A stretch of DNA of 64,000 nucleotides from contig CP086569.2 in NCBI GenBank assembly GCA_009914755.4, positions 24,000,001 to 24,064,000 of the forward strand, given 5' to 3'. Origin of the DNA: the human T2T-CHM13v2.0 reference genome, Homo sapiens. Under the pieces are notes generated by a model. The model was given only the letters and a program-made list of their open reading frames with translations. It searched no databases and had not been told where the DNA came from. Numbering within the stretch: position 1 is the first letter of the stretch; each line of letters begins with the position of its first letter. The translations under genes and the position numbers were made by a program. Below, piece after piece: positions 5,287-24,113 of this stretch.

Positions 5287-6686
5287 CTGAAAATAAAGTT
5301 TACAGAAAGAATGGATTAATACGGTAAAACATTTTCTTTAACTAGAAAGAAATATCATTCCCAAAATAACAAAAATACGAAAAACCTTGAAATGGTAATT
5401 ATTTTTCTACATACAGAAATACAGATTTCTAAATGAATGACTGACATGAAGAAACAAATATTCTCTGTCAAGTGCTACCCTTTGGGCGGGGAGGGGGAAG
5501 AGACAAATGACAAAACAAGTGACTGTTGCACCGGCCAAAGTCTACCATATTTATACTGTGTACTTATGCCCACCCAGAAGTTATTTCTTACGCTGCTGAT
5601 AAGGCTCTATTAAGATAGATTTCAACGTAAGTTAAAATAATACATTTGCTCTTTCTTTGGCAAAATACTTCTAGACTGTTTGCTATCTGATGATATTATA
5701 GGGTAATACTGTAGTTCTTCGGCAGATGTTACGGCTTTCTCTGTACTTCTTTTCCACAAATTAAGGGCAGTAAGTAAGCCACAGCTGGAAAAGAGACAGT
5801 ATAATGTCTTCTACTTTTCAATAAATACTTACTGATTAAAAACATACAGGTAGCATCATTCATCAATACACCCACATTCAGTAATGGCTCACAGTAAATG
5901 CTACAAACAAGTAGGGCTTTTCTTCTAGCCATTGCTCAGAGAAGGAAAAAGAAGAAGAGGTGTACCCCACACGTTTCAAGTACATGGAAAATGTCAACAA
6001 ATGAGAGACACTGAAGAACTAATTCACTACTATTTGGTTACTTTATTTTCCATCGAAGAAAACCTCTTTTTAAAAACTAACACATAAATAAAATGAACGA
6101 AGAACAAACTAAACGTTATTTATCACCAGTAAGTGACAAGAGTATGTCAAATCCTACTTTAAATATCAAAGCAACCAGCATCAGAGAAATTACGTGCCAG
6201 AAACTCACGGGATTTCTAGATAGAGCAAAAGAGATCAGAAATCTACCCATCCCAGAACCAGAATATACCCAGAAGTCAAGCAATTTATATGAGGAGGCAT
6301 CTGGAAATCACTGCAAGTAAAGAATAGCTAGGTTAACTGCTAACCTTAGAGAACAATAAACTAGGCAGACACATAAGGAGGGCTGCTTCCAAATACTTTA
6401 GGAACTAGTTATATGAGGTGAAAGAGGCAGAGATAGGAAGAGATTTGTTCATGTGTCTACAGAGGTCATTTCTAAGAGAAAGCTTCGCCAAGTATACAGA
6501 AGATTCTTAGCTCAAATGACGAACACGAAGAATAAGAAATTTCTAACAAAAGTAACAGATTTCCCGTTACTCACACTGTTCAAACAGGGATTCTATTGCC
6601 ACTTACTATGGAAAGTGTAGATACAATTCCACAGAGGGAAGGATGACTAGAATAAACAAGAGAACAGGAACATAAGCAGTTCTTAC

Positions 6687-6826
6687 CTGAACGTGCTGAG
6701 TTACAGGATTCGGCGTGATTTGGGGCTGCAGGTAGGTTTCAGTGTTTGGATTCCGCCAGACGTTCTGAAACTGTGGTGGAGGAGGAGGATTAACTACCAA
6801 AGGACGTGGCTGCACATGACGAGCAC
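6687..6826 (-). CDS. DAZ: DAZ exon 6, unit A
   Basis: Verified: tcttac|CTGAACGTGCTGAGTTACAGG at 6681 onward. Lies inside ORF 6606..6815- (MQPRPLVVNPPPPPQFQNVW...). Confidence 0.88.
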
Positions 6827-6915
6827 CTTTTTAAAAAGCAAGAAGAAAAAAGCCTATTTTTAGTTATTTGAAAAGCTACACGGGTCAGAAAAGAACCATT
6901 TCTTTTCCTACTCAC

Positions 6916-22118: not shown

Positions 22119-22458
22119 GGCCGGGCGCGGTGGCTCACGCCTGTAATCCCAGCACTTTGGGAGGCCGAGGCGGGTGGATCATGAGGTCAGGAGATCGAGA
22201 CCATCCTGGCTAACAAGGTGAAACCCCGTCTCTACTAAAAATACAAAAAATTAGCCGGGCGCGGTGGCGGGCGCCTGTAGTCCCAGCTACTCGGGAGGCT
22301 GAGGCAGGAGAATGGCGTGAACCCGGGAAGCGGAGCTTGCAGTGAGCCGAGATTGCGCCACTGCAGTCCGCAGTCCGGCCTGGGCGACAGAGCGAGACTC
22401 CGTCTCAAAAAAATAAAATAAAATAAAACAAACAAACAAACAAAAAAACACAAAACAC
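22119..22458 (+). mobile_element. Young AluY-like SINE with perfect 16-bp target-site duplication, in DAZ intron 1 (unit B)
   Basis: Starts ggccgggcgcggtggctcacgcctgtaatcc and matches the AluY consensus closely through the A-rich tail. The TSD aagaagtaattttctt is present at 22103..22118 and 22459..22474. The paralogous empty site is intact at 11251..11266 in unit A. Confidence 0.92.
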
Positions 22459-24113
22459 AAGAAGTAATTTTCTTAACCGTATCTTCAAGTGAGTTGTTGA
22501 ATTTTCAAATGAGAAATGTTGCAATAGTAAACAGGGGTGAGCTTCAAGACCGTCATAATCACAACTCTCATTGCTATTTCTAGCAAACATATTCCTTGTT
22601 ATATGCGGACAATCAAGTGACAAAGACAGCTAAAAGCTGGAAAAAATTATCATTAAACTCCTGCCATGTCAGCTCCTCTGCCAGTATTATCTAATGCAAT
22701 TACTATGTGAACATGTAAGCAAATTGTTATTTACATAAACTGGCCAGGAAAAAGCCTATCATTTGTAGTCATCAAAGTTACATTCACAGCAATAGGAAGA
22801 GGAGCAAATAAAGAGAATGCTAAAATTAAGAAAATATGACGTGAAAATCAGAAGTTAATCCAAGAACAGAGTCCCGGGGAGTGGTGGGTGGCAAGGATGA
22901 AATTCAAGCAATACACAATCCTTGCAAAACTAAGCAAGAAAAAGCAAAAATATATGAGACCTGAAAAATGGGTTGTGGCCCGTGGTTATAAAAGAATGTT
23001 ATGCTCAAACTCTATAGGAATAAATTTTGAAATCAACGACATGGTCAACTTGTACAGAAATTTTAATTCTTCCCAAACAATCTTGAAAAAGAACACCCAA
23101 TGGTATTTGGCTTAGTTTCCCTGGGAGTTTTTTCAACTTGTAAAGAAACATGTAACTTGGGTGTATGTGGTGTGTCACAGAGAGGTGCACACAGACGCCA
23201 GAAACCTGAAGTAAAGATAGAAGAAGAGATTAAGAAATGTAAACTCTTTTCTTCAATTTTCAAAGAGGAAAAAAGTACTTCTCAATGCATTTTACAAAGG
23301 TTAACAACACATAAGCAACAAAGCCTCATCAAGATGGTCCAACCCTCTCCTCAACACAAATGCAAAATTCCAGTAGGAAAGAATATAGTTTATATTGGCA
23401 ATGCAAGAATACTGCATTCGCAGGATACGTTACTTTAATTCATCATTGAAAAAGTATTTAATAAAATACAGCATTCATTTTTAAATTTTTTAAAAACCTA
23501 AGTAAAATAGAAATAGAGGATTCTTGCTTTCTATCAATCTAATTCTACCCTATCATGAAGCTTACAGTGAAATACTAGAGCCATCTCCACTGAAAATAGG
23601 AATAAGGTAAGGGCACCATGGCACCTCATCATTACTACTATATATATTTTCCCACTATGTATGACAAATGCGAATATTAATACAGGGTTTTTATGAGTCA
23701 GTAAGAAAAATAAAATTAAAAAAGGAAATTTAAAAAGCTAATGATCAATGCTCAACTTCACTGATGATTCAAAAAAGTGCACATCAACATAGTGTAACAT
23801 TATCCAGCTATTAGGCTGACGATGTACAAAATCCTAATACCGTTCATTAGAAAGGGTGTGCAACAGAGATCACTCTACACACCATCAGTGGGAAAATACT
23901 GATACATGCTTTACCAAGAGCACCTTGGAAAAGGTGTATCATAATTTGACAGGGGGATACTCACCACTATACTAATGAGGAGCATAATTTAAAATTGTTA
24001 TGAAAGGGCAAAAGCACTTCCACCCAGCAATGCCACTTACAGCAATTAATCTCAAGGAATTAATAATTAAGTACAAGTGTGCCAAGATATTTACACAAGG
24101 ACATTCATGGCAT

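What the first reader, a model, noticed from the sequence alone, without database searches (positions are those of the whole stretch)
5356..22547. Mosaic identity between the two tandem units: a ~6-kb homogenised core flanked by ~14% diverged sequence, which looks like a gene-conversion tract with sharp ends
The two units are essentially identical over 5356..11339 vs 16206..22547 (all ORFs identical). The remaining 4.8 kb of the 10.85-kb period (11340..16139) is only about 86% identical to its intron-1 homologue (I counted about 30 differences in 220 bp at 12330 vs 23740). The distal identity boundary falls only about 65 bp upstream of the exon 7/psi7 acceptor. The other boundary is about 2.8 kb upstream of exon 2. 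This suggests an ancient duplication followed by recent localised conversion (or selection for identical RRM exons), rather than a uniformly young 10.8-kb repeat.
Basis: seen in the sequence. Interest (0 to 1): 0.55.

Follow-up and report, generated by a model that had tools for sequence, protein, structure and literature searches.

The report
Homogenised core in DAZ tandem repeat
Two tandem 10.8-kb copies of the RNA-binding-domain exons of the human Y-linked fertility gene DAZ arose more than 25 million years ago, but recombination keeps a ~6-kb core nearly identical while the flanks have drifted 14-20% apart; this is real but is textbook concerted evolution at a well-studied locus.

Summary
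The window is a human DAZ head-to-head pair. The left gene (minus strand) has two RRM units and the right gene has one.

Identity between the two tandem units, by segment:
- 5356..9768: 0 mismatches in 4,413 bp.
- 9769..11339: 11 mismatches, plus a human-specific AluYb8-like insertion in the proximal unit only.
- Past 11339/11340: an abrupt drop to about 85%.
- 3' side: a step to about 90% at 5355, then about 80% below 4549.

- The duplication junction is identical in all three species.
- The flanks group by paralogue across species: 573 sites against 0 for human versus chimpanzee, and 40:5:9 for human versus monkey.
- The core groups by species: 0 against 102, and 1 against 524.

So the duplication predates the split of Old World monkeys and apes, and the core has been homogenised repeatedly and independently in each lineage. 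In human the last events date to under about 0.25 Myr and about 2 Myr.

The tract is layered rather than a single event. The intron-1-side limit is shared with chimpanzee to the nucleotide. The exon-7-side limit is not shared.

I could not separate gene conversion from unequal crossing-over or exchange through the single-unit partner gene. The phenomenon is already known for this locus, so interest is low to moderate.

The parts
5356..9768 (-). Block D, distal RRM unit (c2): the youngest homogenised layer. It contains exons 2-6 (coding matches 8540..6672), intron 6 and the 5' part of the first 2.4-kb exon-7 unit.
   Evidence: There are 0 substitutions in 4,413 bp against 16206..20620 and against the right-arm unit. 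The exon matches to the DAZ RRM are 98-100% identical.
16206..20620 (-). Block D, promoter-proximal RRM unit (c1). It contains exons 2-6 (19390..17522).
9769..11339 (-). Block C, distal unit: an older homogenised layer in the sequence upstream of exon 2.
   Evidence: There are 11 substitutions in 1,571 bp against 20621..22547. With chimpanzee as outgroup, 8 are derived on c2 and 3 on c1/R. None is shared with chimpanzee paralogue differences.
20621..22547 (-). Block C, proximal unit (intron 1 proper), interrupted by the young Alu.
   Evidence: This block is identical to the right-arm unit at all 11 sites.
22119..22458 (+). AluYb8-like insertion with its A-rich tail. The 16-bp target-site duplication AAGAAGTAATTTTCTT lies at 22103..22118 and 22459..22474. 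The mirror copy is on the right arm at about 50811..50472.
   Evidence: It is 94.6% identical to an AluY consensus recalled from memory, and it carries the GCAGTCC duplication. An intact empty site is present in the distal unit and in all three chimpanzee units.
11340..12873 (-). X': the diverged copy of intron-1 sequence that heads the distal unit. Its partner X is at 22548..24299. X' ends in a 5'-truncated old Alu (12699..12874).
   Evidence: K2P is 0.159 against X. X' is 98-99% identical to chimpanzee X'. In the DAZL-rooted tree, the X and X' clades each contain Nasalis and the apes.
22548..24299 (-). X: the intron-1 original of X'. It includes an extra ~240 bp at 23015..23253, and a full-length old Alu at 24123..24411.
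12874..12875 (-). Junction of the ancestral tandem duplication: a 2.4-kb exon-7 unit joined to the Alu at about consensus position 110.
   Evidence: The junction sequence is identical in human, in both chimpanzee spacers and in Nasalis.
12875..14982 (-). a2: a 2.4-kb exon-7-type unit in the inter-RRM spacer, with a degenerate pseudo-exon 7 (13689..13618).
   Evidence: It is about 80-82% identical to every other 2.4-kb unit. It groups by orthology with chimpanzee at 321:0 sites.
14983..16205 (-). The 3' part of unit a1 (blocks E and F of the proximal unit). It contains psi7 (16132..16061), whose acceptor AG is lost.
   Evidence: Against 4135..5355, the range 4549..5355 has K2P 0.10 and 4135..4548 has K2P 0.21. 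The acceptor reads ttctc-g where the distal unit reads ttttcag.
4135..5355 (-). The 3' part of unit b1 (blocks E and F of the distal unit). It contains the functional first exon 7 (5286..5215).
50383..56724 (+). Single RRM unit (R) of the right-arm gene: blocks C and D, with exons 2-6 at 53540..55408.
   Evidence: R is identical to c1 at all 11 block-C sites, at both 1-bp indels and at the Alu. It is identical to c2 at every site below 5355. R is therefore a perfect hybrid of the 5' part of c1 and the 3' part of c2.
35397..37534 (.). Palindrome spacer between the two head-to-head genes. The arms are 22100..35396 and 50830..37535.
   Evidence: The arms are 99.970% identical over 13,297 bp. The two arms differ in length by one 10.85-kb unit.
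25992..25994 (-). ATG at the end of exon 1 of the left gene. The surrounding sequence 25250..26500 is CpG-rich.
   Evidence: It matches the start of the chimpanzee annotated CDS (ATG|GTGAGT), and the composition supports a CpG-rich region.

Best explanation
The window holds a human DAZ head-to-head gene pair at the centre of a Y palindrome. In the canonical arrangement, 2 + 1 RRM units is the DAZ4/DAZ3 configuration.

The 10.85-kb RRM unit was duplicated in tandem once, shortly before the split of Old World monkeys and apes. One breakpoint was in an intron-1 Alu and the other in the second 2.4-kb exon-7 unit.

Since then, non-allelic homologous recombination has repeatedly homogenised the central part of the unit, independently in each lineage. 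That part comprises about 2.8 kb upstream of exon 2, exons 2-6, intron 6 and the start of the first exon-7 unit. The outer parts (X/X' and the 2.4-kb units) escaped and diverged by 15-21%.

The human pattern is layered:
- A layer last homogenised before the human-chimpanzee split fixes the limit at 11339/11340.
- A layer about 2 Myr old covers 9769..11339.
- A layer under about 0.25 Myr old covers 5356..9768.
- An old layer, roughly 13-15 Myr, covers 4549..5355. It has since been left out in human but was re-homogenised in chimpanzee.

What is shown: the age of the duplication, the concerted evolution of the core, the positions of the limits, and the hybrid nature of the single-unit partner.

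What is inferred:
- The exchanges are gene conversions and/or paired unequal sister-chromatid exchanges.
- Flank divergence blocks heteroduplex extension, which keeps the edges sharp. In the first 77 bp past 11340 the divergence is 22%.
- The single-unit gene on the other arm can pair with either tandem unit, so arm-to-arm conversion also ties the two units together.
For: Identity of the locus:
- DAZ RRM exons and exon-7 repeats are present.
- The period is 10.85 kb and there are 2.4-kb units.
- The arms are 99.97% identical with a 2.1-kb spacer.
- The canonical 1-RRM DAZ3 / 2-RRM DAZ4 arrangement is described in PMC13252187.
- The window is 97-98% identical to chimpanzee DAZ.

Mosaic.

Ancient single duplication:
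- The junction is identical in human, chimpanzee and Nasalis.
- Flank quartets give 573:0:0 for human versus chimpanzee and 40:5:9 for human versus Nasalis in X.
- The DAZL-rooted NJ tree of X has two trans-species paralogue clades.
- K2P between X and X' is 0.159, against 0.139-0.148 for human-Nasalis orthologues.
- Literature: 2- and 3-RRM DAZ genes occur in bonobo, chimpanzee and gorilla, and a cynomolgus DAZ cDNA has two RRM regions (PMC2322974).

Concerted core:
- Quartets give 0:102:0 and 1:524:0, and the trees are species-specific.
- A preprint reports that DAZ RRMs cluster by genus or species (10.1101/2024.04.02.587783).

Recombination rather than selection:
- Introns are as identical as exons.

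Layering and independent events:
- Human and chimpanzee share the 11339/11340 limit. Nasalis has no edge there.
- The 3' limit is at 5355 in human and at 4544/4549 in chimpanzee.
- Chimpanzee block E is a mosaic of both human paralogue types, at 56 and 24 sites.
- Nasalis has its own patches, 95.5-99% around exons 3-6.

Ongoing unequal exchange:
- The chimpanzee gene has three units, and its two inter-unit spacers match at every compared site.
- R is a c1/c2 hybrid.
- Human population assemblies show intragenic RRM deletions and duplications, and DAZ3/DAZ4 RRM swaps by inversion.
Against: - No direct evidence separates non-crossover conversion from two successive unequal crossovers, or from exchange through the other arm.
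- The dates rest on a simple ratio to human-chimpanzee and human-Nasalis divergence, with assumed split times.
- The Nasalis locus lies on a 117-Mb record, which is unexpected for a Y-linked gene. It is DAZ-like in structure, with two RRM units and at least four exon-7 units, but I did not verify that it is Y-linked.
- The Nasalis quartet in proximal X is weak (7:2:1).
- Only one haplotype per species was examined.
- Perfect identity among long repeats could be slightly inflated by assembly polishing.
Confidence: 0.85

Rival explanations
1. Homogenisation is mainly by crossover rather than by classical short-tract non-crossover conversion. The routes would be cycles of unequal sister-chromatid exchange (2 to 3 to 2 units) and/or crossovers and misregistered arm-to-arm exchange with the single-unit gene on the other arm. 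This rival concerns mechanism only and is compatible with the best explanation.
For: - The chimpanzee gene has 3 units whose two spacers match at every compared site, so a whole unit plus spacer was duplicated recently.
- The right-arm unit is exactly the 1-unit product expected from a c1 x c2 unequal crossover within 5356..9768.
- Population data show RRM gains, losses and DAZ3/DAZ4 RRM swaps by inversion (PMC13252187).
- The youngest tract is long, at least 4.2-4.4 kb. From general knowledge, that is longer than typical mammalian non-crossover tracts.
Against: - Two crossovers are needed to leave a 2-unit gene with an internal patch.
- Y palindromes are known to undergo abundant non-crossover arm-to-arm conversion (Rozen 2003, cited in PMC2151955).
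- The small alternating patches in chimpanzee block E, runs of 2-15 sites, look like short conversion tracts.
Confidence: 0.35
2. Purifying selection on the RRM exons alone keeps the two units alike, without recombinational homogenisation.
For: - Purifying selection on the DAZ RRM has been reported (10.1101/2024.04.02.587783).
- In all three species the most similar part of the units includes RRM exons.
Against: - The exons are about 0.5 kb of the 4.4-kb block that has no substitutions, and introns and upstream sequence are equally identical.
- The core differs by 1.8% between human and chimpanzee and by 14-15% from Nasalis, yet by 0% within each ape species. Selection cannot produce that pattern in non-coding DNA.
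Confidence: 0.02
3. The 10.8-kb repeat is uniformly young, and the ~85% 'flank homology' is only chance similarity between unrelated copies of interspersed repeats.
For: Part of X/X' is an old Alu (12699..12874 and 24123..24411). The 2.4-kb units are a repeat family whose members are all about 80% alike.
Against: - X/X' is collinear over about 1.5 kb of mostly non-Alu sequence, and is collinear with DAZL upstream of exon 2.
- The junction and the X' sequence are conserved in chimpanzee (98-99%) and in Nasalis.
- X' has no partner above 98% anywhere in the window.
Confidence: 0.01
4. The perfect identity is an assembly or polishing artefact: near-identical repeats collapsed or consensus-corrected onto one another.
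For: Identity of 100% over 4.4 kb in three copies, in a notoriously hard region. The provenance of the window is unknown.
Against: - The copies keep distinct, phylogenetically sensible differences just outside the block. These are 11 sites polarised by chimpanzee, the Alu present or absent with intact target-site duplications, and homopolymer differences.
- An independent chimpanzee assembly shows the same kind of block with different limits.
- Southern-blot and population-assembly literature agrees on the unit structure.
Confidence: 0.03

Closest known systems
The 10.8-kb RRM repeat of human DAZ genes (AZFc; DAZ1 has 3 units, DAZ4 has 2, DAZ2 and DAZ3 have 1) and its concerted evolution in great apes
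   Same: This is the same locus. It has exons 2-6 in a 10.85-kb tandem unit, 2.4-kb exon-7 units, a head-to-head pair in a palindrome and a 1 + 2 RRM configuration. RRMs are reported to cluster by species or genus. Multi-RRM genes occur in apes and in an Old World monkey cDNA.
   Different: Nothing differs in kind. The accessible papers did not show the base-level map of homogenised and escaped segments, the limit at 11339/11340 shared with chimpanzee, or the AluYb8 marker. The original description (Saxena et al. 2000, Genomics) could not be read, so I cannot say these details are unpublished.
Gene conversion between the tandem fetal globin genes HBG1/HBG2 (Slightom et al. 1980; recalled from general knowledge, not checked here)
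   Same: An old tandem duplication in which a central tract is nearly identical and has an abrupt edge, while the flanks keep the old divergence. Non-coding sequence is homogenised along with coding sequence.
   Different: The globin tract is about 1.5 kb, lies between two whole genes, and is bounded by a simple-sequence stretch. Here the repeat is intragenic (an exon block), the tract is about 6 kb and layered, no simple repeat lies at the sharp edge, and the locus is a non-recombining Y palindrome with a third, inverted copy.
Arm-to-arm gene conversion in human and ape Y palindromes (Rozen et al. 2003, cited in PMC2151955)
   Same: The arms here are 99.97% identical. The right-arm unit is identical to whichever left-arm unit it can pair with on each side.
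   Different: The finding concerns direct (tandem) repeats within one arm, not the inverted arms. The arms are unequal by one unit, so the inverted copy could serve as a template for both tandem copies. That role is inferred, not shown.
Crossover-fixation (unequal exchange) homogenisation of tandem arrays such as TSPY and RBMY on the Y
   Same: Unit number varies from 1 to 3. In chimpanzee a whole unit plus spacer was duplicated recently.
   Different: There are only 2-3 units, and the homogenised segment is shorter than the repeat period. Simple whole-unit turnover cannot explain the diverged spacer retained between the units.

Membership tests
Human-type DAZ gene pair (Y-chromosome AZFc palindrome centre) | Exons 2-6 encode the DAZ RRM and 72-bp exon-7 'DAZ repeats' follow | tested here: met
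   tblastn with DAZ protein gives 98-100% exon matches at 8540..6672, 19390..17522 and 53540..55408. Exon-7 units lie at 5286..5215, 2849..2772 and 461..381. The probe sequence was recalled from memory, and database hits named DAZ/DAZL confirm it.
Human-type DAZ gene pair (Y-chromosome AZFc palindrome centre) | 10.8-kb RRM repeat unit and 2.4-kb exon-7 repeat unit | tested here: met
   The offset between units is 10,848-10,852 bp. The 2.4-kb units are about 80-88% alike.
Human-type DAZ gene pair (Y-chromosome AZFc palindrome centre) | Head-to-head genes in a palindrome with about 99.97% arm identity and a spacer of about 2 kb | tested here: met
   The arms are 99.970% identical over 13,297 bp, and the spacer is 35397..37534. 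The published values used for comparison are recalled from memory.
Human-type DAZ gene pair (Y-chromosome AZFc palindrome centre) | Assignment to DAZ3/DAZ4 rather than DAZ1/DAZ2 | tested here: inconclusive
   A 2-RRM plus 1-RRM pair fits canonical DAZ4/DAZ3 (PMC13252187). No human reference was available for comparison, and remodelled haplotypes exist.
Concerted evolution of duplicates by non-allelic homologous recombination (gene conversion or unequal exchange) | Within the tract, paralogues are closer within a species than orthologues are between species | tested here: met
   In blocks C and D, 0 orthology sites against 102 concerted for human versus chimpanzee, and 1 against 524 for human versus Nasalis. 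The trees agree.
Concerted evolution of duplicates by non-allelic homologous recombination (gene conversion or unequal exchange) | Outside the tract the same duplicates show orthologous (trans-species) relationships, so the duplication is older than the speciation | tested here: met
   In X, 190:0 for human versus chimpanzee and 40:5:9 for human versus Nasalis. In F and G, 383:0. The junction is identical in three species.
Concerted evolution of duplicates by non-allelic homologous recombination (gene conversion or unequal exchange) | Non-coding sequence is homogenised equally with coding sequence, which rules out selection alone | tested here: met
   There are 0 substitutions in 4,413 bp, of which about 0.5 kb is exon.
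Concerted evolution of duplicates by non-allelic homologous recombination (gene conversion or unequal exchange) | Non-reciprocal transfer without change of copy number (conversion in the strict sense) | not testable with these tools
   This needs pedigrees, sperm typing or many haplotypes. One haplotype per species cannot separate conversion from double unequal crossover.
Concerted evolution of duplicates by non-allelic homologous recombination (gene conversion or unequal exchange) | GC-biased outcome of conversion | not tested
   Only 11 polarised sites are available in block C, too few for a test.

The most novel reading that the evidence does not exclude
The single-RRM gene on the opposite palindrome arm acts as a bridging template. 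Because the arms differ by one unit, the single unit can pair with either tandem unit, so rapid arm-to-arm conversion also homogenises the two direct repeats. The usable homology in each register then sets the tract limits. This would explain why the limit at 11339/11340 has stayed at the same nucleotide in human and chimpanzee for more than 6 Myr. A corollary is that the youngest layer (under about 0.25 Myr) should be polymorphic among human Y haplogroups.
Probability: 0.3. Interest if true: 0.4.

Novelty: already known. Interest (0 to 1): 0.25.

Why it matters
DAZ is the main candidate fertility gene of the AZFc deletion interval, and its number of RRM units varies among men and among apes. 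This result shows that the two-RRM structure is at least 25-30 Myr old, not a recent human duplication. It also gives a base-level map of which parts of the unit still exchange sequence.

Several differences can serve as markers for tracing RRM gains, losses and DAZ3/DAZ4 swaps in population assemblies:
- the 11 block-C sites;
- the AluYb8 presence or absence;
- the roughly 76 block-E sites;
- the difference between psi7 and the functional exon 7.

None of this changes current understanding. It is a clean worked example of concerted evolution with fossilised tract ends.

Tried and rejected
- Tandem Repeats Finder does not see the 10.85-kb period, because its maximum period is 500. I used self-BLAST and MAFFT instead.
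- The literature search for 'DAZ' with '10.8-kb' and '2.4-kb' found nothing. 'DAZ' with '10.8 kb' found only a Southern-blot mention.
- The primary descriptions, Saxena et al. 2000 and Gromoll et al. 1999, are not held.
- Genomic look-ups failed ('not on record') for human DAZL (P0006), a human protein annotated as DAZL but 98% identical to the DAZ RRM (P0002), orangutan DAZL (P0009) and gibbon DAZ (P0005). I used Pygathrix DAZL as the outgroup instead.
- I considered that the position of the 3' edge, 69 bp upstream of psi7/exon 7, is functional, protecting the difference between pseudo-exon and exon. I rejected this because in chimpanzee the tract runs about 800 bp further and all three units carry the AG-less psi7 type.
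- I looked for a simple repeat or a transposon edge at the sharp limit 11339/11340 and saw none in the aligned sequences.
- Nasalis has no edge at that position, so it is not a universal barrier.
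Full report
**What the window is.** Self-BLAST shows three things.
- A large inverted repeat: 14983..35396 against 57945..37535, and 1..11266 against 62078..50812.
- A direct repeat with an offset of about 10,850 bp: 4135..11266 against 14983..22118.
- Many 2.0-2.4-kb units that are about 80% alike.

tblastn with the DAZ protein finds exons 2-6 of the DAZ RNA-recognition motif on the minus strand at 19390..17522 and 8540..6672, and on the plus strand at 53540..55408. 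The probe was written from memory, and the 98-100% exon matches are the test. 72-bp exon-7 'DAZ repeats' follow the distal left unit and the right unit. A database search with the 165-residue RRM returns proteins named DAZ/DAZL.

The palindrome arms 22100..35396 and 50830..37535 are 99.970% identical, with a 2,138-bp spacer. Exon 1 ends in ATG|GTGAGT at 25994..25992, inside a CpG-rich stretch. The window is 97-98% identical to a chimpanzee DAZ locus.

So the window is a human DAZ head-to-head pair. The left gene has two RRM units and the right gene has one, which is the canonical DAZ4/DAZ3 content (PMC13252187). I could not confirm which pair it is.

**Checking the observation.** I aligned the two tandem copies globally (2000..12874 against 12875..24400) and listed the differences.
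- The last mismatch on the 3' side is at 5355/16205.
- 5356..9768 has no substitution in 4,413 bp. It has only two homopolymer length differences.
- 9769..11130 holds 11 substitutions.
- A 356-bp indel sits at 11250 / 22103..22458.
- 11251..11339 is identical.
- From 11340/22548, mismatches come at 17 in the first 77 bp and about 14% thereafter, up to 12873/24299.

The two distances quoted are also right: 69 bp to the exon-7/psi7 acceptor, and 2.8 kb to exon 2. Given the unit-wide mismatch density of about 6.8%, a mismatch-free run of 4.4 kb has a probability of about e^-311.

The description needs three corrections.
1. The 'identical' core has two layers, 100% and 99.3%, plus the indel.
2. 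Only 11340..12873 is homologous to intron 1. 12875..14982 is a complete 2.4-kb exon-7-type unit with a degenerate pseudo-exon. 14983..16205 is the 3' part of another such unit.
3. The 3' edge is a step from 100% to about 90-94% (4549..5355), and then to the roughly 80% background shared by all 2.4-kb units.

**The indel.** The extra 340 bp in the proximal unit is an Alu flanked by a perfect 16-bp target-site duplication, AAGAAGTAATTTTCTT. The distal unit has the intact empty site. The element carries the GCAGTCC duplication, which from memory marks the young AluYb8 subfamily. It is mirrored on the right arm and is absent from all three chimpanzee units. It is therefore a human-lineage insertion. 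It has spread between the arms but not into the distal tandem unit.

**The third copy.** A three-way alignment shows that the single right-arm unit R matches the proximal unit c1 at all 11 block-C sites, at both 1-bp indels, at the Alu and throughout intron 1. R matches the distal unit c2 at every site below 5355. R is exactly the hybrid expected in two cases. One is a one-unit product of an unequal c1 x c2 exchange inside the identical block. The other is a copy kept identical to whichever left-arm sequence it can pair with on each side.

**Related loci.** The look-up of encoding contigs returned three loci.
- A chimpanzee DAZ locus, L001, with three RRM units.
- A DAZ-like locus from the Old World monkey Nasalis larvatus, L002. 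It has two RRM units with a period of about 11.3 kb, and at least four exon-7 units.
- A Pygathrix DAZL locus, L003. It has one RRM and one exon 7, and it is collinear with DAZ through the X region.

**Age of the duplication.**
- The junction, where a 2.4-kb unit joins an Alu truncated at about consensus position 110, is the same nucleotide for nucleotide in human, in both chimpanzee spacers and in Nasalis. This points to one ancestral event.
- Quartet site counts in the flanks support orthology overwhelmingly. Human versus chimpanzee gives 134+56 sites in X and 62+321 in the 2.4-kb parts, with none for the alternatives. Human versus Nasalis gives 33:3:8 in distal X and 7:2:1 in proximal X.
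- A DAZL-rooted neighbour-joining tree of X has two clades, (Nasalis U1, (chimpanzee U1, human U1)) and (Nasalis U2, (chimpanzee U2/U3, human U2)).
- K2P between X and X' is 0.159. That is slightly above the human-Nasalis orthologue distances of 0.139-0.148, and similar to the distances to DAZL of 0.136-0.160.

The duplication therefore happened shortly before the catarrhine split and not long after DAZ left its autosomal parent. This agrees with published Southern blots showing 2- and 3-RRM genes in bonobo, chimpanzee and gorilla, and with a cynomolgus DAZ cDNA that has two RRM regions (PMC2322974).

**Concerted evolution of the core.**
- In blocks C and D every informative site groups the paralogues by species: 0:102:0 for human versus chimpanzee, and 1:524:0 for human versus Nasalis. 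The trees are species-specific.
- Human and chimpanzee cores differ by 1.8-2.5%, and both differ from Nasalis by 14-16%. Within human and within chimpanzee the cores differ by 0-0.7%.
- Nasalis units are 8% apart on average, with patches of 94-96% and of 95.5-99% around exons 3-6.
- Introns are homogenised as completely as exons, so selection on the RRM cannot be the direct cause.
- A recent preprint independently reports that DAZ RRMs cluster by genus or species.

**Layers and limits.**
- With chimpanzee as outgroup, 8 of the 11 block-C differences are derived on c2 and 3 on c1/R. None coincides with the chimpanzee's own paralogue differences.
- I scaled to human-chimpanzee divergence in the same segments with an assumed split of about 6.5 Myr. 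Block C was last homogenised about 2 Myr ago, and block D less than about 0.25 Myr ago (95% bound from 0 differences in 4,413 bp). These dates are inferences.
- The limit at 11339/11340 falls at the identical nucleotide in chimpanzee, with the same paralogue-specific bases beyond it. Nasalis shows no edge there. The limit is therefore a tract end fixed in the human-chimpanzee ancestor and never crossed since.
- The 3' limit differs between species: 5355/5356 in human and 4544/4549 in chimpanzee. In 4549..5355 the human units differ by 10% (K2P). The three chimpanzee units are identical there, and form a mosaic of the two human types in alternating runs, at 56 and 24 sites. Below 4545 the paralogue-specific bases are again shared across species (62 sites).
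- Because the chimpanzee tract runs through psi7/exon 7 and leaves all three units with the AG-less pseudo-exon type, the position of the human edge just upstream of psi7 is probably incidental.

**Mechanism.** The evidence shows an ancient duplication, repeated lineage-specific homogenisation of a central segment, and escaped flanks.

The exchanges are inferred to be non-allelic homologous recombination. Three routes are possible:
- non-crossover conversion between the tandem units;
- pairs of unequal sister-chromatid exchanges;
- exchange through the inverted single-unit copy.

Support for crossover routes: the chimpanzee gene has three units, and its two inter-unit spacers match at every compared site, so a whole unit plus spacer was duplicated recently. 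Human population assemblies also show RRM gains, losses and DAZ3/DAZ4 swaps.

Support for conversion: the short alternating patches in chimpanzee block E, and the abundant arm-to-arm conversion known in Y palindromes (cited).

The routes are not exclusive, and one haplotype per species cannot separate them. The sharp edges are best explained by flank divergence. Once a flank has escaped long enough, mismatches block heteroduplex extension and the edge is fossilised. This explanation is an inference.

**Comparison with what is known.** The locus, its 10.8-kb and 2.4-kb repeats, its variable RRM number and the concerted evolution of its RRMs are all published. The closest general analogue is conversion between tandem fetal globin genes, which also has a sharp tract edge (from general knowledge). 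The accessible papers did not show the base-level map of layers, the limit shared between human and chimpanzee, or the AluYb8 marker. I could not read the original genomic description, so I make no claim of priority.

**Verdict.** The phenomenon is already known, and interest is low to moderate.

Noticed in passing
window 22100..35396 vs 50830..37535; spacer 35397..37534: The palindrome arms are 99.970% identical (3 mismatches and 1 gap in 13,297 bp) around a 2,138-bp spacer. The arms are unequal by exactly one 10.85-kb RRM unit.
   Followed up: partly
window 22119..22458 (+), mirrored at about 50811..50472: A young AluYb8-like insertion with a perfect 16-bp target-site duplication. It is present in the proximal unit and in the right-arm unit. 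It is absent from the distal unit and from all chimpanzee units, so it is a clean marker that distinguishes the two tandem units.
   Followed up: yes
L001 about 30340..30440 and the equivalent positions in the other two chimpanzee units; window 5286..5215 vs 16132..16061: In the chimpanzee gene all three units carry the AG-less pseudo-exon-7 type. This includes the last unit, at the position where human has its functional first exon 7. The first DAZ repeat used must therefore differ between the two species.
   Followed up: partly
window about 100..400 vs about 2500..2800 (2.4-kb units b3 and b2; b1-equivalent positions 5145..4870): Two neighbouring exon-7 units share a patch of 95-98% identity against an 80-87% background. 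This suggests further local conversion inside the exon-7 array.
   Followed up: no
L002 (Nasalis larvatus, CM106365.1:3517518-3549357): A DAZ-like locus with two RRM units and at least four exon-7 units lies on a 117-Mb record. That is unexpected for a Y-linked gene, and could reflect a misjoin, a different chromosome assignment or a relocated copy.
   Followed up: no
protein P0002: A protein annotated 'deleted in azoospermia like, partial [Homo sapiens]' is 98% identical to the DAZ RRM, not to DAZL, yet is recorded on a 200.9-Mb contig, which is about the size of chromosome 3. Its locus could not be fetched.
   Followed up: no
window 31924..32059 and 40871..41006: A 69-bp unit repeated twice (86% match) lies in each palindrome arm upstream of the DAZ promoters.
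   Followed up: no
window 23015..23253: About 240 bp are present in intron 1 (X) but absent from X' (11833). The same break is seen in chimpanzee. I did not determine whether it is an insertion in X or a deletion in X'.
   Followed up: no
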